DNA of 64,000 nt from Candidatus Aenigmatarchaeota archaeon (GCA_021157845.1 JAGGVU010000002.1:31376-95375), one strand, 5' to 3'; shown: positions 48,606 through 53,943, counted from the first letter of the stretch. A program made the numbers and translations. Notes: generated by a model from the sequence alone, not told the origin.

Positions 48606-49322
48606 TTAATAATTGGCCCTTATTTCTGTTTTGACAAATTTTTCAGCGATAGATTTGAACGTATTTAATTCTGCAACTGAAAAGGATTTTTTCTTTTCGT
48701 ATTCTGGGTTTATGCAGTTTTGTGGAACAAAGTTTTGTATTACAAATTTCTTGGCACCCTTGATATATTTCACTATCGCTTCAATATCTTCTTTGGTGTG
48801 GAGGCCAGGCACAGCAGTTGTTCTGAACTCATAAGCCACACCACTTTTTATTATAATAGAAACGCTTCTTTTTATCTTTTTTAATTTTTCATCTGTTATT
48901 TTAATTCCACACGCCTTGGAATATTTCTCTTTAGTTAGGGGAGATTTTATGTCCATAGCAATAAAGTCAACAAGATTTTGGCTAACGATCTCTTCTAATT
49001 TTTCAGGAAAACTTCCGTTTGTGTCTAATTTAACGAGATAGCCAAGTTCTTTAATTTTTTTAATGAAACTTACCAGATCTGTTTGCAGGCATGGTTCGCC
49101 GCCGGTTATTTCAACAGCTTCGAGAAGGTTTTTTCTTTTTTTCAAAAAATCGAAAATCTCCCCTTCTTTTATATGGTTTAGTTGCTTTATTTTTTTTTCA
49201 AGGACAAGCTGGCTGTTATGACAGAACGGACATCTGAAATTACAACCAATCGTAAAAATTATACATGATATTTTCCCGGGATAGTCTATCAAGGAAATTT
49301 TCTGAAGCCCTCCTATTAACAT
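48606..49322 (-). CDS. nrdG: anaerobic ribonucleotide reductase activating protein (radical SAM, NrdG-like)
   Basis: CNFRCPFCHN radical-SAM cluster motif. Adjacent to nrdD. Confidence 0.7.
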   Translation of the reverse strand: MLIGGLQKISLIDYPGKISCIIFTIGCNFRCPFCHNSQLVLEKKIKQLNHIKEGEIFDFLKKRKNLLEAVEITGGEPCLQTDLVSFIKKIKELGYLVKLDTNGSFPEKLEEIVSQNLVDFIAMDIKSPLTKEKYSKACGIKITDEKLKKIKRSVSIIIKSGVAYEFRTTAVPGLHTKEDIEAIVKYIKGAKKFVIQNFVPQNCINPEYEKKKSFSVAELNTFKSIAEKFVKTEIRANY

Positions 49323-49537
49323 ATTATCACATTTTTCAAAACCAGCTAAAATTAGGCAGGATTAGTTTTAGCTTCTTCAACCTGTTTATCAAAGGTTTTT
49401 CTGTCTTCGAATTCTGCCTGTTTGCCGTCATTCCACTGGCTGACTGGCCTTAGATATCCAACAACCCGCGAAAAAACCTCACATCTCGTTTTTGTCATTT
49501 TTATTCCTCCCTCCTTTCTAAATAACTAAAATAAAAA

Positions 49538-52500
49538 TTAATTCTCTGTAGCACAAATTGGGCAGTAATAATGTTTTCCAGGTATATAGCCGTGTATAGG
49601 GCATATGCTAAATGTTGGTGTTATGGTAAAGTATGGAAGCCTGAAATTTTCTGCTATCTTTCTTATAAGATTTTTCGTAGCTTCTGGGGATGGCATGCTC
49701 TCGCCTATAAATCCATGCAAAACTGTCCCACCTGTATATTTACATTGTAGGTTATCCTGAAGTTTCAAAGCTTCAAAAATGTCATCCGTGTAGTCAACTG
49801 GCAGTTGTGTTGAATTTGTATAGTACGGTGCTGCACCTCTTCTATAATTTTCTTCGTTTGCAACTATTATGTCCGGATAATTTTTTTTGTCAAGCCGCGC
49901 AAGCCTATGAGACGCCCCTTCTGCTGGTGTTGCCTCGAGGTTATATATATTTCCTGTTTCCTGTTGATAGCTCTGGAGTTTATTTCTCATAAAGTCCAAA
50001 ACCTTCTCAGCAAATTTTCTGCCTTTTTCGTCTGCTATATTTACGCCCATAAAATTTAGTAGGGCTTCGTTCATACCAATTAGTCCAATCGTTGAGAAAT
50101 GGTTTTTCCAATATTTCCCTGTTTTTTGTTTTATACTTCTCAAATAAAATCTGGAATATGGATACAGCCCCTTTTCAGTGAAATTTTCAATAATTTTTCT
50201 TTTGATTTCAAGGCTTTTTTTTGCCAGGTCCATATTTTTTTCAAGTTTCTCAAAAAACTCTTCTTCTGTTTTTGACATGTACCCTATTTTTGGCATGTTT
50301 ATGGTTACCACGCCTATAGAACCTGTGAGCGGATTAGCACCAAACAGTCCGCCGCCCCTTTTTTTTAATTCTCTATTGTCTATTCTAAGCCGGCAGTTGT
50401 GCGTAAGAATACCAGTAGTTCCTACTGTAAACATTGGCTCCCCGTTCTCAACTTCAAAGCAATAAGCAGTATTGTTTTTTAATTGCTTAATAGACTTGAT
50501 CTTTATCCAAAGCTTGTTGTCATGTTTAAACCAGAAATCACCATAGTTATTTCTATTTAGTTGATAGACTAAAACGGAATAGTTCGGTTCTTCACCTAAT
50601 CTACCGTCTCTACTGTCCTCATATACAGATGTGGTTGTTCCTAAAGTAGCTGCAAGCATATTAAGTGTTTCTAACATTTTCTTGGATGATGTGTATATTC
50701 TGTTGCGATTTCCTCCATCTGTTGCATAGTGCCCTTCCAATACACCCTTTCTAAATTCCAAACTCATTCCAAATATTCTACTTTTATAATGCTTCTCTCT
50801 TTTTATTCCAGAAACAAAGTCTTTACAAAGTCCTACAGCAGCTTTTGAATGTATTCTAAGTGTAAAGAGTTTAGTGTCGTCATACTCCTTTGTTGTACAA
50901 TGCGCCCCAAAATATTTTTCGGCAATTTGTTTTAGTTTTTTTGCAACAGTCTTTTTTTCTCCGGCTCCTAAAGAAAACACAACTGTTGTTTCTCTATCTA
51001 ATGATCCATCACCCGCATAAGCACCTACAAAATATCCCAAGTCAGCATTTCCACCATTTCCTTCGTACACATTAAGAGAATAGGGAAGATACATGCCTTC
51101 TTCCAATTGCTCTCCTTTCAATTCTTCTACCACCGCGTCTGGCCCTCTCATTACAAAATTGAGATGTTCACTAGACATTTTTATTTTATGACCATTTTCG
51201 AGAGCAATTTCAATCATTTTTTGATTTGGGAATTTGTTAAACTTGCCTTTTACAAATTTTCCATCACTGTAAATTTCATATTTCTCAGTCTTAGAATTAC
51301 CTTCATAGATGTTTCTAATGCTTGAATATTCCAACCTCCTTCCTCTATTTGATTTTATCAATACCTTTTCTTCGCCATCTAGCGGACACATACTTCTTAC
51401 GTCATCTGGCTTCATGTCACTATTTATAAAATTAGCGAAATATGGAACTCCGTACTTTGCAGTCATTTCCCAAAGTGGTTTATAGTCTTCTTTATCCCAC
51501 TCAAAATTTTTCGTTATGTTATATGTTGGAATTGGGAATGTGAACACCCGGCCTTTTGCATCACCTTCTAGCATCATTTCAGCAAACGCCCTGTTTATCA
51601 TATTCATCTCTTTCTGAAAGTCAGAGTAGGATTCTTTCTGCGGCTTTCCACCAATTATTACTGGCTCGTTTTTCATGTAGCTTGGAACTTCCAAATCGAG
51701 CGTTATGTTTGTAAAAGGAGTGTTCCCTGTTATGAAGACTTTGCCATTTCTTCTTGCTATTACAGTCTCATTTTTTGTGTTTGGGCACCATATTATCCCG
51801 TTATAGTTTACTTTTGTTATTTTCTGTATATACGTTTCCTTGTGTTTGATAAGTCTAAGGACATAAATATCTTTACTGCCGATTGTTGGCTTTCTTTTCA
51901 AGACAGTAAATCCGTACCCAGCGTTAACTGCTATGATTTGCAGTGCATCTAAAATTTCCAAATTCGTCGTCGCAATTTTGCAATTTTCGAACCCATCTGC
52001 CTTAAGGTAAGTTTGAATAAATAACTTAGACTGCCGTTCGTTCATATTTAATAAAATATCAGGTACAAAACTGATATTATCTCTAGTTCCAAACCATTTG
52101 TGAATTTTTCTGGAACTTTTTGCGTCAAGCCTAAGTCTTGCGACTTTACCATCAAAAGCAGCAGACTCATATTCAGAGTATTTTAGTTTGAAATGTTTCA
52201 GAAGTTTGATTATTTCTTTATAGTTCTTTTTGTTTTTTTCTTTCGACTGGTAAATACTTATCCTGTAGCAGTGTCTATATTTTGTTGGTCTTTCTATTGT
52301 TCCTTCGCTTATAATCCATGCCATTAATTTTATTTGTTCATCACTGATTGTTGCCTCTTTGTTTGAATTTTTTCCAGCGATAGGAATAATAAAAGGTGAT
52401 TTTAATTTTATGACGTCTTCTATCGGTTCAAGTATATATGCGCTGGTTTGAAAATTTTTTCTAACAACCCTATGTTTTGGCGATATTAATTGATCTTGTA

Positions 52501-53485
52501 CATGATTTTTCAGATTATACATTATTCCCTTATAATGCTTTTTGAAAACTCTTCTGACACGCTGATTTTCTATTTTGCCTGTTTTTACATTAAATGTCTT
52601 TATTATACTCCCTCTTTTTATTTCGTCATATCTGGCCCAGCCTTCTGGTGTCAATATTTCCGTATCTTCTGATACACACTGAAACCCAACCCTTGTCGGC
52701 ACATTTATGTTAAATAGAAATTCCTGCATCGCCTGCTTAACCTGTTTGTAGTTTAGATTGTCATAGCGAATAAATGGCGCAAGAAGCGTATCAAAATTTG
52801 AAAAAGCCTGTGCACCCGCTGCCTCGCCCTGCAGTGTATAGAAAAAATTTATTATCTGGCCAAGTGCAACCCGCAGATGTTTTGCAGGTTTGGTTTCTAT
52901 TTTTCCGCTCACACCTTTGAAGCCTGATAAGAGAAGGTCCTGCAAATCCCATCCTACGCAGTATGCACCAAATATTCCCAAATCATGAATATGAAAATCG
53001 CCGCTATTATATGCCTGTCTGATTTCTGGTGGATATATTTTATTCAGCCAATAGTTAGAAATAATTTTTGATGAGATATGAAAATTTAAGCCCTGCAAGG
53101 AATAAGTCATATTGCTATTCTCACGCACGCGCCAGTCCTTTTCATCAAGATACTTATCAACAACACTGAGGTCGCCAACCATCCTTCTAAGTTCTCTCAG
53201 TTCTTTATGCTGTTGTCTGTATAATATGTATGCTTTGGCAGTTTTTGCGTGGCCGTTTTCTATTAAAACCTTTTCAACTATATCCTGTATTTCCTCAACT
53301 GTAGGTTCTCTGCTAATGCCATCATATTTTTTTTCTAATATTTCTACAACTTGGGCAGATAGTTTTTTAGATAACTCTTTATCTTTTCCACCAACTGCCT
53401 GTGCAGCTTTCCAAATGGCTTCTGTTATTTTATTCGGTTCAAAATCAACAATTCTTCCATCCCGCTTTTTGATTTTTTTTATCAT
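49538..53485 (-). CDS. nrdD: anaerobic ribonucleoside-triphosphate reductase NrdD (class III) interrupted by two inteins
   Basis: ATP-cone N-terminus, C-terminal ..TFSICPIHGY..CPIC glycyl-radical/Zn-ribbon region. Extein total is about 665 aa out of 1315. Confidence 0.85.
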   Translation of the reverse strand: MIKKIKKRDGRIVDFEPNKITEAIWKAAQAVGGKDKELSKKLSAQVVEILEKKYDGISREPTVEEIQDIVEKVLIENGHAKTAKAYILYRQQHKELRELRRMVGDLSVVDKYLDEKDWRVRENSNMTYSLQGLNFHISSKIISNYWLNKIYPPEIRQAYNSGDFHIHDLGIFGAYCVGWDLQDLLLSGFKGVSGKIETKPAKHLRVALGQIINFFYTLQGEAAGAQAFSNFDTLLAPFIRYDNLNYKQVKQAMQEFLFNINVPTRVGFQCVSEDTEILTPEGWARYDEIKRGSIIKTFNVKTGKIENQRVRRVFKKHYKGIMYNLKNHVQDQLISPKHRVVRKNFQTSAYILEPIEDVIKLKSPFIIPIAGKNSNKEATISDEQIKLMAWIISEGTIERPTKYRHCYRISIYQSKEKNKKNYKEIIKLLKHFKLKYSEYESAAFDGKVARLRLDAKSSRKIHKWFGTRDNISFVPDILLNMNERQSKLFIQTYLKADGFENCKIATTNLEILDALQIIAVNAGYGFTVLKRKPTIGSKDIYVLRLIKHKETYIQKITKVNYNGIIWCPNTKNETVIARRNGKVFITGNTPFTNITLDLEVPSYMKNEPVIIGGKPQKESYSDFQKEMNMINRAFAEMMLEGDAKGRVFTFPIPTYNITKNFEWDKEDYKPLWEMTAKYGVPYFANFINSDMKPDDVRSMCPLDGEEKVLIKSNRGRRLEYSSIRNIYEGNSKTEKYEIYSDGKFVKGKFNKFPNQKMIEIALENGHKIKMSSEHLNFVMRGPDAVVEELKGEQLEEGMYLPYSLNVYEGNGGNADLGYFVGAYAGDGSLDRETTVVFSLGAGEKKTVAKKLKQIAEKYFGAHCTTKEYDDTKLFTLRIHSKAAVGLCKDFVSGIKREKHYKSRIFGMSLEFRKGVLEGHYATDGGNRNRIYTSSKKMLETLNMLAATLGTTTSVYEDSRDGRLGEEPNYSVLVYQLNRNNYGDFWFKHDNKLWIKIKSIKQLKNNTAYCFEVENGEPMFTVGTTGILTHNCRLRIDNRELKKRGGGLFGANPLTGSIGVVTINMPKIGYMSKTEEEFFEKLEKNMDLAKKSLEIKRKIIENFTEKGLYPYSRFYLRSIKQKTGKYWKNHFSTIGLIGMNEALLNFMGVNIADEKGRKFAEKVLDFMRNKLQSYQQETGNIYNLEATPAEGASHRLARLDKKNYPDIIVANEENYRRGAAPYYTNSTQLPVDYTDDIFEALKLQDNLQCKYTGGTVLHGFIGESMPSPEATKNLIRKIAENFRLPYFTITPTFSICPIHGYIPGKHYYCPICATEN
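50396..51388 (-). mobile_element. intein 2 in NrdD (331 aa, LAGLIDADG homing endonuclease) inserted at SM/CRLR catalytic motif
   Basis: Begins CPLDGEEKVLI. Block B GHKIKMSSEHLNFV. LGYFVGAYAGDGS LAGLIDADG motif. Ends GILTHN followed by C. Confidence 0.7.
51722..52678 (-). mobile_element. intein 1 in NrdD (319 aa, LAGLIDADG homing endonuclease)
   Basis: Begins CVSEDTEILTPEGW (block A). Block B ..SPKHRVV. LAGLIDADG-like motifs LMAWIISEGT and YLKADGFE. Ends KVFITGN followed by Thr, i.e. penultimate Gly instead of His. Confidence 0.6.
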
Positions 53486-53943
53486 TTTTTCACCCCTTTT
53501 AGTGAACTTATTTCGTTTTCAAACGATTCTATATCTTCAAAAGATCTATACACCGACGCAAATCTAATATAAGCAACTTTGTCAAGTTTCTTAAGTTTCT
53601 TTACAACCATTTCACCAATAACAGAACTTTCTATCTCCCTTTGTCCGGTTTTTCTGATATCCTTCTCAATCTTGTCAACCATTTTTTCTATTTTATCATA
53701 ACCTATTGGCCGTTTTTCACACGCCTTTTTTATACCTGCCAATATTTTCTCCCTATTAAATTCCTCTCTTCGTCCATCTTTTTTTATCACAACTATGTCT
53801 ATAGAAGGTCTTTCATATGTTACGAAACGTTTGCCACATTTTTCACACTCGCGGCGCCTTTTTATCGCACCCTCGACTTCCCTTGTTTCAAGAACTTTTG
53901 TCTCTTTATATGAGCAAAAAGGACACTTCGTAATTACCACCAA
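53482..53943 (-). CDS. nrdR: transcriptional repressor NrdR (zinc ribbon + ATP-cone)
   Basis: CPFC..TKV..R......RRRECEKCGKRF.TYE zinc ribbon followed by an ATP-cone. Its stop overlaps the nrdD start. Confidence 0.75.
   Translation of the reverse strand: MVVITKCPFCSYKETKVLETREVEGAIKRRRECEKCGKRFVTYERPSIDIVVIKKDGRREEFNREKILAGIKKACEKRPIGYDKIEKMVDKIEKDIRKTGQREIESSVIGEMVVKKLKKLDKVAYIRFASVYRSFEDIESFENEISSLKGVKK

What the first reader, a model, noticed from the sequence alone, without database searches (positions are those of the whole stretch)
49538..53485. NrdD carrying two LAGLIDADG inteins, one at the catalytic Cys motif; first intein ends in Gly-Asn rather than His-Asn
The 1315-aa class III ribonucleotide reductase is about twice normal length. 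Insert 1 (aa 270-588, nt 51722-52678) runs from CVSEDTEILT to KVFITGN followed by Thr, and contains LAGLIDADG-like blocks. Insert 2 (aa 700-1030, nt 50396-51388) runs from CPLDGEEKV to GILTHN followed by Cys. It carries LGYFVGAYAGDGS and splits the conserved ..SM / CRLR.. active-site region, as inteins characteristically target catalytic sites. Intein 1 has a non-canonical penultimate residue (Gly instead of His), which in other inteins alters C-terminal cleavage chemistry.
Basis: partly seen in the sequence, partly recalled or inferred. Interest (0 to 1): 0.5.

Follow-up and report, generated by a model that had tools for sequence, protein, structure and literature searches.

The report
Two inteins in archaeal NrdD
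An archaeal anaerobic ribonucleotide reductase gene carries two self-splicing protein inserts, and the second, wedged between two essential cysteines, starts with proline rather than a nucleophile, so it probably splices by the rare 'class 3' route not previously described in this enzyme or in archaea.

Summary
The 1315-aa NrdD ORF (49538-53485, minus strand) and both inserts are real. Each insert folds as a HINT splicing domain plus a LAGLIDADG endonuclease.

It is an ordinary Cys1 intein. Its Gly-Asn end is conserved across its family and has known precedents.

Insert 2 was mis-delimited by one codon. A 97.5-99% identical strain that lacks it reads ATG TGT|TGC CGG, so the insert is P701-N1030 (50396-51385). 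Cys700 belongs to the host enzyme. Splicing restores the SMCCRLR motif, and both of these Cys residues are essential in T. maritima NrdD.

Insert 2 therefore has no N-terminal nucleophile. It has Pro1, His at B:10, Cys at F:4, Thr-His-Asn and Cys+1. That is most of the class 3 signature, but Trp B:12 is missing.

In 42 diverged Pro1 relatives the F:4 Cys is invariant. In Cys1 relatives, including phage NrdD inteins at the same site, it varies. No specific sequence affinity to canonical class 3 inteins was detected.

The best reading is a class-3-like intein of probably independent origin, found in DPANN archaea and CPR bacteria. The splicing mechanism is inferred, not demonstrated.

The parts
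49538..53485 (-). nrdD precursor ORF, 1315 aa: three extein segments plus two inteins
52679..53485 (-). Extein segment 1 (aa 1-269): ATP-cone and the N-terminal part of the NrdD barrel, ending ...PTRVGFQ
   Evidence: The profile of intein-free homologues covers aa 1-270.
51722..52678 (-). Intein 1 (aa 270-588, 319 aa). Key residues: Cys1 = C270, His B:10 = H338, Cys F:4 = C567, T586-G587-N588. The +1 residue is T589.
   Evidence: Boundaries restore VGFQ|TPFTN, as in 114 of 120 homologues. AF2 pLDDT 91.9. Foldseek matches TliVMA, PI-PfuI and PI-SceI inteins at E 1e-15 to 1e-12. TIGR01445 matches at residues 1-64.
51857..52363 (-). Approximate LAGLIDADG endonuclease domain of intein 1 (intein residues about 106-274). 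Motifs: LMAWIISEG (E394) and YLKADG (D497).
   Evidence: Helical core in the AF2 model. Match to I-DmoI. W121, E125 and G126 are invariant in family alignment A2.
51386..51721 (-). Extein segment 2 (aa 589-700): TPFTNITL...DDVRSM-C700. Its last codon, TGT at 51386-51388, is the first Cys of the host Cys-Cys pair.
   Evidence: the profile piece covers 588-700
50396..51385 (-). Intein 2 (aa 701-1030, 330 aa). Key residues: Pro1 = P701 (51383-51385), Ser B:7 = S771, His B:10 = H774 (51164-51166), Asn B:12 = N776, Cys F:4 = C1009 (50459-50461), T1028-H1029-N1030 (50396-50404).
   Evidence: Exactly this 990-nt stretch is absent from the 97.5-99% identical contig L001. Pfam Intein_splicing 41.3 bits and LAGLIDADG_3. 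AF2 pLDDT 89.7. Foldseek TliVMA intein E 2e-19, TM 0.80. Block positions fixed by alignment to gp41-1 and gp41-1_WCT.
50561..51073 (-). Approximate LAGLIDADG endonuclease domain of intein 2 (intein residues about 105-275). Motifs: LGYFVGAYAGDGS (D826) and GHYATDGG (D923).
   Evidence: G117, G121 and G127 are invariant in the family.
49538..50395 (-). Extein segment 3 (aa 1031-1315 plus stop). It starts with C1031 (TGC, 50393-50395), which is the +1 splicing nucleophile and the residue aligned to the T4 C290 / T. maritima C330 radical cysteine. It ends with the Zn-ribbon CPIHG...CPIC.
49352..49498 (-). Separate 48-aa gene encoding the NrdD glycyl-radical motif (CEVFSRVVGYLRPV...). It lies 39 nt after the nrdD stop and has its own Shine-Dalgarno sequence.
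   Evidence: Pfam NRDD model positions 531-562, E 1.4e-10. The same layout occurs in an Aenigmarchaeota MAG.
48606..49322 (-). nrdG, the radical-SAM activase of NrdD
   Evidence: TIGR02495 NrdG2, 3.4e-65
53482..53943 (-). nrdR regulator. Its stop overlaps the nrdD start by 4 nt.
   Evidence: TIGR00244, 2.8e-56; coordinates

Best explanation
**What it is.** The gene encodes a class III ribonucleotide reductase catalytic subunit. It must be matured by two independent protein-splicing events to give a 666-aa enzyme. The host is an archaeon, most likely of the phylum Aenigmatarchaeota.

**Intein 1 (C270-N588).** This is a conventional class 1 intein with a LAGLIDADG endonuclease. The proposed steps are:
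1. Cys270 makes the N-S acyl shift.
2. Thr589 takes over the N-extein.
3. Asn588 cyclises without help from a penultimate His. Gly587 is the family norm.
4. An O-N shift seals ...VGFQ-TPFT...

**Intein 2 (P701-N1030).** It sits between the two essential cysteines of the finger-loop motif SMC|CRLR and has no N-terminal nucleophile, because residue 1 is Pro. The most likely mechanism is the class 3 route:
1. The block F cysteine Cys1009, assisted by His774, attacks the Cys700-Pro701 peptide bond and forms a thioester-branched intermediate.
2. The N-extein is passed to Cys1031. This is the +1 residue and also the future thiyl-radical cysteine.
3. Asn1030 cyclises, assisted by Thr1028 and His1029.
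4. An S-N shift restores ...SM-Cys-Cys-RLR...

Both inteins carry apparently intact homing endonucleases. Intein 2 is present in one of two near-identical strains and absent from the other, so it was gained or precisely lost recently.

**Shown versus inferred.** Shown: the boundaries, the folds, residue conservation and covariation, and the presence/absence polymorphism. Inferred: that splicing occurs, and that Cys1009 is the first nucleophile.
For: **Boundaries**
- Nucleotide alignment with L001 defines the insert as 50396-51385, flanked by TGT and TGC.
- 117 of 120 homologues read RSMCC[RH]LR and 3 read RSMC-P....
- T. maritima NrdD has C329-C330, and both Ala mutants are inactive (PMC4493059).
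- Phage homologues at the same site read ...SC|CF(D/G/S)...THN|CR, so Pro701 aligns with their Cys1.
- TIGR01445 aligns L702 to model position 2.

**Class-3-type features**
- The class 3 prototype MP-Be DnaB starts with Pro1 and needs Cys F:4, His B:10 and Thr G:5 (PMC2807308).
- The profile alignment to gp41-1_WCT puts N776, C1009 and T1028 on the grafted W, C and T columns.

**Covariation**
- All 42 Pro1 cluster representatives have Cys F:4, T-H-N, Cys+1 and His B:10.
- 18 of 80 Cys1 relatives have Asp, Ser or Val at F:4 (Fisher p = 3e-4).
- Among 43 Pro1 sequences averaging 32% identity, only 13 positions are invariant. They include P1, H74, C309, T328, H329 and N330.

**Folds and host**
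- Fold evidence.
- Selection between strains: exteins omega 0.014, intein 1 omega 0.20.
- The operon is complete: nrdR, nrdD, glycyl-radical ORF, nrdG.
- The host is archaeal: aCPSF1, aTrm56, Taw1 and Taw2 lie on the same contig. The closest genome copy is in an Aenigmatarchaeota MAG at 94-97% identity.
Against: - No experiment shows splicing, and no coordinates were available to measure the Cys1009-to-junction geometry.
- Several parts of the canonical class 3 signature are missing. B:12 is Asn or Gln, never Trp. B:7 is Ser rather than the class 3 Asp. The +1 residue is Cys, which is seen in only one characterised class 3 intein, Bvi IcmO.
- Most Cys1 relatives also carry Cys F:4, so this Cys predates the loss of Cys1 and could have another role.
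- The Fisher test ignores phylogeny.
- With Cys+1 present, a class 2-type direct attack cannot be excluded from sequence alone.
- dN/dS for the C-terminal half of intein 2 against the Aenigmatarchaeota copy is high (0.7, small counts).
Confidence: 0.68

Rival explanations
1. Intein 2 splices by a class 2 (KlbA-like) route. Cys1031 (+1) attacks the Cys700-Pro701 peptide bond directly. Cys1009 only assists, as Asp F:4 does in KlbA.
For: The N-terminal nucleophile is absent and Cys+1 is present and invariant. Class 2 inteins use Cys+1 (PMC4031507 and PMC5222942).
Against: - Class 2 inteins are all KlbA orthologues with Ala1, Asp F:4 and Ser G:6. Here the residues are Pro1, Cys F:4 and His G:6.
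- F:4 Cys is strictly invariant only when residue 1 is Pro.
Confidence: 0.15
2. One reading: intein 2 is a class 1 intein that runs from Cys700 (as Cys1) to Asn1030, and the mature enzyme reads ...RSM-CRLR...
For: A Cys directly precedes the insert, and a Cys-to-Asn span looks canonical. An N-S shift at Met699-Cys700 is chemically possible.
Against: - The intein-less allele in a 98-99% identical strain keeps both Cys codons, TGT and TGC.
- None of 120 homologues has a single Cys.
- C329A is inactive in T. maritima NrdD.
- The product scores 11 bits lower.
- Cys1 homologues at this site show three Cys, with Pro aligned to their Cys1.
- The block A register fits Pro as position 1.
Confidence: 0.04
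3. Intein 2 is splicing-dead because it lost Cys1. This nrdD copy is then a non-functional precursor or pseudogene that is tolerated by the cell.
For: Loss of the residue 1 nucleophile inactivates ordinary inteins. Occasional family members show disabling changes, for example P0169 with its terminal Asn replaced by Tyr in the intein 1 family.
Against: - The 3948-nt ORF is intact.
- The extein omega is 0.014 between strains.
- Pro1, Cys F:4 and THN|C are conserved in 42 clusters sharing under 50% identity, across archaea and bacteria.
- The operon is complete and translationally coupled.
Confidence: 0.06

Closest known systems
Clostridium phage c-st (and D-1873) NrdD intein, plus unannotated homologues in Desulfovibrio phage SRB7757 and a gut phage
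   Same: It uses the same insertion point between the two finger-loop cysteines. It has the same architecture of HINT plus LAGLIDADG at about 330-350 aa. Identity is about 28-31% over the full length. Cys at F:4, THN and Cys+1 are shared.
   Different: The phage inteins start with a canonical Cys1 (...SC|CF...). The window's intein starts with Pro. The phage copies are annotated only as a putative intein or an NrdD-related protein, and no mechanism has been studied.
Class 3 inteins (mycobacteriophage Bethlehem DnaB, M. smegmatis DnaBi1, M. chimaera DnaB1)
   Same: Both have a non-nucleophilic residue 1, and the prototype also has Pro1. Both have Cys at block F position 4, His B:10, and Thr-His-Asn at the C-terminus (PMC2807308, PMC6195587, PMC7664689).
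   Different: - B:12 is Asn or Gln instead of Trp.
- Block B reads SxxH rather than DxxH.
- The +1 residue is Cys rather than Ser or Thr.
- The host is NrdD rather than a helicase or ATPase P-loop.
- The hosts include archaea and CPR bacteria.
- No detectable specific sequence similarity to solved class 3 inteins was found.
Bvi IcmO intein
   Same: It is a class 3 intein with Cys at +1, so both branched intermediates would be thioesters (PMC5222942).
   Different: It carries the full WCT triplet, is a mini-intein, and sits in a bacterial IcmO ATPase.
gp41-1 intein (class 1) and its engineered gp41-1_WCT variant
   Same: It is the closest solved splicing domain by sequence (E 1e-8 to 9e-11). 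It shares the SxxH block B and the THN end.
   Different: Natural gp41-1 has Cys1 and Asp F:4. Grafting WCT plus C1A onto it did not give productive splicing (PMC7664689). It is a split mini-intein without an endonuclease.
Inteins that lack the penultimate His (for comparison with intein 1)
   Same: These inteins end in X-Asn with X not His. Reviews note that several inteins lack this His (PMC7664689). Chen, Benner & Perler 2000 and Wang & Liu 1997 are cited in PMC4031507. From my own knowledge, the C. eugametos ClpP intein has a penultimate Gly.
   Different: Here Gly-Asn is the conserved state of a whole family resident in NrdD (18/20). Paralogues at another NrdD site end SGN|C.

Membership tests
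Intein (HINT splicing domain with nested LAGLIDADG homing endonuclease): both inserts | HINT fold interrupted by a two-motif LAGLIDADG domain | tested here: met
   AF2 pLDDT 91.9 and 89.7. Foldseek top hits are the TliVMA, PhoVMA, PI-PfuI and PI-SceI inteins, with E 1e-15 and 2e-19.
Intein (HINT splicing domain with nested LAGLIDADG homing endonuclease): both inserts | In-frame insertion at a conserved host site, with intein-free alleles that are collinear once the insert is removed | tested here: met
Intein (HINT splicing domain with nested LAGLIDADG homing endonuclease): both inserts | C-terminal Asn followed by Cys, Ser or Thr, and a block B His | tested here: met
   N588|T589 with H338 for intein 1; N1030|C1031 with H774 for intein 2
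Intein (HINT splicing domain with nested LAGLIDADG homing endonuclease): both inserts | Protein splicing demonstrated | not testable with these tools
   Needs expression of the precursor or proteomics.
Class 1 intein | Cys, Ser or Thr at intein position 1 | tested here: met
   This row is for intein 1, which has Cys270. Intein 2 does not meet the feature: position 1 is Pro701.
Class 3 intein (Tori et al. 2010 definition): intein 2 | Non-nucleophilic N-terminal residue | tested here: met
   Pro701, invariant in 43 of 43 sequences of the Pro1 group. The prototype also has Pro1.
Class 3 intein (Tori et al. 2010 definition): intein 2 | Cys at block F position 4 | tested here: met
   C1009 aligns with the grafted Cys107 of gp41-1_WCT. 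It is present in 42 of 42 Pro1 representatives.
Class 3 intein (Tori et al. 2010 definition): intein 2 | Thr at block G position 5 | tested here: met
   T1028, invariant
Class 3 intein (Tori et al. 2010 definition): intein 2 | Trp at block B position 12 | tested here: not met
   N776 in the window. The Pro1 group has Asn (22) or Gln (20) and never Trp.
Class 3 intein (Tori et al. 2010 definition): intein 2 | Ser or Thr at +1 | tested here: not met
   Cys1031. Only Bvi IcmO is a known exception.
Class 3 intein (Tori et al. 2010 definition): intein 2 | Membership of the monophyletic, phage-derived lineage found in helicase and ATPase genes | tested here: inconclusive
   No solved class 3 intein appears among the PDB sequence hits. 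The nearest relatives are Cys1 NrdD inteins. No joint phylogeny with canonical class 3 sequences was built.
Class 3 intein (Tori et al. 2010 definition): intein 2 | Block F branched thioester intermediate | not testable with these tools
   A biochemical assay is needed.
Class 2 intein (KlbA type): intein 2 | Ala1, Asp F:4, Ser G:6 and orthology to KlbA inteins | tested here: not met
   The residues are Pro1, Cys F:4 and His G:6, and the host is NrdD.
Class III ribonucleotide reductase NrdD (host protein) | Full-length match to curated NrdD models after the inserts are removed | tested here: met
   NF006126 scores 1018 bits against a cut-off of 548. There is a single 1333-bit match to the profile of 108 homologues. 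Identity to the 665-aa P0003 is 80%.
Class III ribonucleotide reductase NrdD (host protein) | Glycyl-radical motif and a cognate radical-SAM activase | tested here: met
   The motif is on a separate 48-aa ORF. NrdG2 is adjacent.

The most novel reading that the evidence does not exclude
The intein family at the NrdD Cys|Cys site preserves three states at one insertion point: Cys1 with Asp F:4, Cys1 with Cys F:4, and Pro1 with Cys F:4. On this reading it records a natural transition from class 1 to a class-3-type mechanism. That would be a second, independent origin of block-F-nucleophile splicing, now spread through DPANN archaea and CPR bacteria. Three cysteines (-1, F:4 and +1) are packed at the junction of an oxygen-sensitive radical enzyme. 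They could also make maturation redox-gated, as shown for the class 3 DnaBi1 intein.
Probability: 0.4. Interest if true: 0.75.

Novelty: new variant of a known kind. Interest (0 to 1): 0.6.

Why it matters
Reviews describe class 3 inteins as a single, monophyletic invention of phage origin. They are said to be confined to helicase and ATPase genes of bacteria and phages. One structural study argued that class 3 could hardly evolve from class 1.

If this NrdD intein splices through its block F cysteine, three things follow:
- The mechanism extends to archaea and CPR bacteria, and to a metabolic radical enzyme.
- The Trp of the 'WCT' signature is shown to be dispensable.
- A set of natural homologues at one insertion site (Cys1/Asp, Cys1/Cys, Pro1/Cys) becomes available to test directly how the N-terminal nucleophile can be lost.

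There is also a practical point for annotation. Automatic Cys-to-Asn intein delimitation mis-trims this family by one residue and deletes an essential active-site cysteine from predicted mature NrdDs.

Nucleophile-free inteins that tolerate Cys at both -1 and +1 may also interest protein engineers.

Tried and rejected
- **Single-sequence PDB searches.** phmmer of each insert against PDB sequences gave nothing significant. Family profiles and structure prediction were needed instead.
- **Pfam on insert 1.** It gave only a sub-threshold Intein_splicing hit (E 0.0036). The fold search settled the question.
- **RNA scans.** Rfam and tRNA scans of the whole window found nothing, so they gave no taxonomic help. 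Protein markers were used instead.
- **Genome scan with a profile.** It was rerun with the single sequence.
- **Tori & Perler 2011.** PMC3133030, on the expanded definition of class 3, is not in the library. The definitions came from PMC2807308, PMC5222942 and PMC4031507.
- **Co-conversion.** I looked for a co-conversion tract around the intein 2 site between the two strains and found none. SNPs cluster in the endonuclease domain of intein 1.
- **Other inteins.** A six-frame screen of the window for further inteins found none.
- **Cys700 as Cys1.** Considered and rejected (see the rival explanations).
- **Intein 1 as class 3.** It has Cys F:4, Thr G:5 and Thr+1. I rejected this because it keeps Cys1, and F:4 is Ser in 3 of 20 relatives and Asp in paralogues.
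- **Prior descriptions.** Literature searches for a Pro1 or class 3 NrdD intein, or for class 3 inteins in archaea or DPANN, found none. A 2023 paper says class 3 inteins are known only from bacteria and phages.

Full report
**1. The observation**

The window has an uninterrupted ORF of 1315 codons at 49538-53485 on the minus strand.

NrdD profiles match the protein in three separate pieces. Pfam NRDD scores E 7e-170. NCBIfam NF006126 scores 1018 bits against a cut-off of 548. An N-terminal ATP-cone is present, and Intein_splicing and LAGLIDADG_3 hits fall inside the second gap.

The gene sits in an operon:
- nrdR (53482-53943), whose stop overlaps the nrdD start by 4 nt;
- nrdD;
- a 48-aa ORF;
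- nrdG (48606-49322).

**2. Host organism**

The same contig encodes aCPSF1 (843 bits), archaeal tRNA Cm56 methyltransferase, Taw1/TYW1, Taw2 and FtsZ. The host is therefore an archaeon.

The closest genome copy of insert 2 (94-97% identical) is in a Candidatus Aenigmatarchaeota MAG. The nearest intein-free NrdDs come from Aenigmarchaeota, Pacearchaeota and Woesearchaeota. The window has no tRNA gene and no Rfam hit.

**3. Insert 1 (aa 270-588; 51722-52678)**

Removing exactly C270-N588 gives ...PTRVGFQ|TPFTNITL... Of the 120 closest NrdDs, 114 read VGFQ[TS]PF at this point and 6 carry the same insert.

Sequence profiles alone are weak here: TIGR01445 E 1.6e-4 and Pfam Intein_splicing E 0.0036. 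The AlphaFold model built from 14 homologues is confident (pLDDT 91.9, pTM 0.89). It matches endonuclease-bearing inteins (TliVMA, PhoVMA, PI-PfuI, PI-SceI) at E 1e-15 to 1e-10, and its central domain matches I-DmoI.

Key residues are Cys1 (C270), His B:10 (H338), T586-G587-N588 and Thr+1 (T589).

The Gly-Asn end is not a lesion:
- 18 of 20 family members end TGN|T. The two exceptions look degenerate.
- Paralogues at another NrdD site end SGN|C.
- Inteins without the penultimate His are documented (PMC7664689; references in PMC4031507).

The family occurs in NrdDs of DPANN archaea, CPR bacteria, Omnitrophica, Methanophagales and Methanoculleus, and once in a DNA methylase. Natural mini-intein derivatives exist (P0081, P0161).

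Between the window and a 98% identical strain, intein 1 has omega 0.20 and the exteins have omega 0.014. The other strain's copy has G498R in the second LAGLIDADG motif. This fits a fixed intein whose endonuclease is under relaxed constraint. I read intein 1 as an ordinary class 1 intein.

**4. Insert 2: the boundary correction**

Intein-free relatives read ...RSMCCRLR... with two cysteines. That includes P0001, whose exteins are almost identical to the window's. The window reads ...RSM-C-PLDG...THN-C-RLR...

The contig encoding P0001 (L001) is syntenic with the window and 97.5-99% identical to it over about 9 kb. It lacks exactly window 50396-51385, which is 990 nt. Its junction is ATG TGT|TGC CGG. 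The window's is ATG TGT|CCG CTA ... CAC AAC|TGC CGG. The insert is therefore P701-N1030. Cys700 is the -1 extein residue and Cys1031 is the +1 residue.

Independent support:
- Of the 120 nearest NrdDs, 117 have RSMCC[RH]LR, 3 have RSMC-P..., and none has one Cys.
- A more distant NrdD clade shows the same pattern. P0132 and P0133 read ...SN-C-P...THN-CRL, and intein-free T. maritima NrdD reads AVAS-C329-C330-RL.
It assigns residue 700 to the middle extein piece.
- TIGR01445 aligns L702 to model position 2, so P701 occupies position 1.
- Phage homologues at the same site have three cysteines...ALAS-C|C-FDGQQKTL...GIITHN|C-RL... Pro701 aligns with their Cys1.

Aurelius et al. 2015 align T. maritima 328-SCCR-331 with T4 288-MGCR-291, where C290 is the radical cysteine. 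They found both C329A and C330A inactive (PMC4493059).

**5. Insert 2: what kind of intein**

Pfam Intein_splicing (41.3 bits, above the cut-off) and LAGLIDADG_3 hit it. The AlphaFold model is confident (pLDDT 89.7, pTM 0.90) and matches the TliVMA intein at E 2e-19 with TM 0.80.

A profile of the splicing domain alone finds gp41-1 as the closest solved intein. The engineered gp41-1_WCT scores best (E 9e-11). Its grafted Trp (B:12), Cys (F:4) and Thr (G:5) fall on N776, C1009 and T1028. Wild-type Asp107 falls on C1009.

Intein 2 therefore has Pro1, Ser B:7, His B:10, Asn B:12, Cys F:4, Thr-His-Asn and Cys+1.

Tori et al. 2010 defined class 3 inteins by two features: a non-nucleophilic residue 1 (Pro1 in the prototype MP-Be DnaB intein), and a Trp B:12 / Cys F:4 / Thr G:5 triplet that co-varies with it. 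Cys F:4 is the obligate first nucleophile (PMC2807308). Intein 2 meets the Pro1, Cys F:4 and Thr G:5 criteria. It does not meet three others:
- Trp B:12;
- Ser or Thr at +1;
- the class 3 DxxH block B.

**6. Family-wide test**

An exhaustive search of 1.84 billion cluster representatives with P701-N1030 found 357 relatives at E <= 1e-3. Of 124 full-length domains:
- 108 sit at the NrdD Cys|Cys site: 42 with Pro1 and 66 with Cys1;
- 2 more sit at that site, but residue 1 is a gap in the alignment;
- 5 sit one residue upstream (SM|C...HN|CCR);
- 9 are in other proteins.

All 42 Pro1 representatives have Cys F:4, Thr-His-Asn, Cys+1 and His B:10. Their B:12 is Asn (22) or Gln (20).

Among the 80 Cys1 relatives, F:4 is Cys in 62 and Asp, Ser or Val in 18. 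The Fisher test gives p = 3e-4, uncorrected for phylogeny.

The 43 Pro1 sequences average 32% pairwise identity. Only 13 of 330 positions are invariant among them, and these include P1, H74, C309, T328, H329 and N330. In the Cys1 set C309 is not invariant.

In a neighbour-joining tree the Pro1 sequences form two coherent groups, Pro/Asn/Cys (which includes the window) and Pro/Gln/Cys. Cys1 lineages separate the two groups. The Cys1/Asp F:4 group lies next to the second one. I treat that topology as indicative only.

Named genomes that carry the Pro1 form include Aenigmatarchaeota, Woesearchaeota and Nanoarchaeia (archaea), and Paceibacterota and Patescibacteria (CPR bacteria). All read RSMC|P...YCF...THN|CRL.

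**7. Mechanism**

Pro701 cannot make the N-S acyl shift of class 1. Two routes remain.

*Class 3 route (favoured, about 0.65-0.7).* Cys1009, assisted by His774, attacks the Cys700-Pro701 bond. The N-extein passes to Cys1031. Asn1030 cyclises, and an S-N shift restores Cys-Cys. I favour this for two reasons:
- Cys F:4 becomes strictly invariant exactly where residue 1 is non-nucleophilic.

*Class 2 route (about 0.15).* Cys1031 attacks directly. The family lacks the class 2 hallmarks Ala1, Asp F:4 and Ser G:6.

A dead intein is unlikely, given the conservation, the intact ORF, the extein omega of 0.014 and the complete operon. None of these steps has been observed. They are inferences from sequence.

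**8. Mobility**

Both LAGLIDADG motif pairs look intact: GDG and TDGG in intein 2, SEG and ADG in intein 1.

Intein 2 is present in the window and in the Aenigmatarchaeota MAG, but absent from the 98-99% identical L001 strain. This is a recent gain by homing or a precise loss. No co-conversion tract is visible.

**9. Comparison with what is known**

Inteins in RNR genes are common, and a putative intein in phage c-st nrdD has been noted before (PMC3653736). The two-intein NrdD as such is a new member of a known kind.

The Pro1 intein is different. Reviews describe class 3 inteins as monophyletic, phage-derived and resident in helicase or ATPase genes, and name Bvi IcmO as the only one with Cys+1 (PMC4031507, PMC5222942). 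[quoted passage not shown]

My literature searches found no description of a nucleophile-less NrdD intein. Solved class 3 inteins are not detectable by sequence from this family. Its nearest relatives are Cys1 inteins at the same site.

I therefore file intein 2 as something that works like class 3, but I do not place it in the canonical WCT lineage. It is a new variant, plausibly of independent origin.

**10. Limits**

- There is no biochemical evidence.
- I had no access to model coordinates.
- The covariation test is not corrected for phylogeny.
- The tree is a simple NJ tree.
- The key 2011 paper on the expanded class 3 definition could not be read.

Noticed in passing
window 49352-49498 (-); also L011 4576-4725: The NrdD ORF stops right after its Zn-ribbon. 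The glycyl-radical motif (MTKTRCEVFSRVVGYLRPVSQWNDGKQAEF...) is encoded by a separate 48-aa gene 39 nt downstream, after two in-frame stops and with a strong Shine-Dalgarno sequence. It matches NRDD model positions 531-562 (E 1.4e-10). The same nrdR-nrdD-49-aa-nrdG layout occurs in an Aenigmarchaeota MAG. Many close homologues also end just after CPxC. This may be a stand-alone glycyl-radical subunit for a class III RNR, and I did not check whether it has been described.
   Followed up: partly
window 53482-53943 (-): A bacterial-type NrdR regulator (TIGR00244, 2.8e-56) is encoded in this archaeal contig. Its stop overlaps the nrdD start by 4 nt. The same pairing is seen in L001 and L011.
   Followed up: no
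homologues P0030/P0031, P0061, P0152, P0161, P0164, P0224, P0240, P0304: NrdD in these lineages is an intein hot-spot. Besides the two sites used here, relatives carry inteins at GAY|CVGWD, at ...GE|SAGAQA and AQAF|SNFD, at PYF|C..., and at SM|CC, which is one residue upstream of the intein 2 site. Some proteins carry two or three inteins.
   Followed up: partly
L001 gene codon 498 (window equivalent 51992-51994): The sister strain's copy of intein 1 has Gly to Arg in the second LAGLIDADG motif (KADGFE becomes KADRFE). SNPs between the strains cluster in the endonuclease domain of intein 1 (15 of 41 SNPs within 300 nt). This suggests the endonuclease is decaying after fixation.
   Followed up: partly
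P0081 (832 aa) and P0161: Natural mini-intein derivatives of intein 1 sit at the same GFQ|TPF site. Their endonuclease domain is deleted, but CxSEDTEIL...IIWCPNT...VFITGN|T is retained.
   Followed up: no
window 1-64000: The entire 64-kb window has no tRNA gene and no Rfam family at gathering threshold.
   Followed up: no
intein 1, window 51785-51787 (C567) and 51719-51730: Intein 1 also has Cys at block F position 4, Thr at G:5 and Thr at +1, which is three parts of the class 3 signature, but it keeps Cys1. Relatives have Ser at F:4 (3 of 20) and paralogues have Asp, so this Cys is probably not essential.
   Followed up: partly
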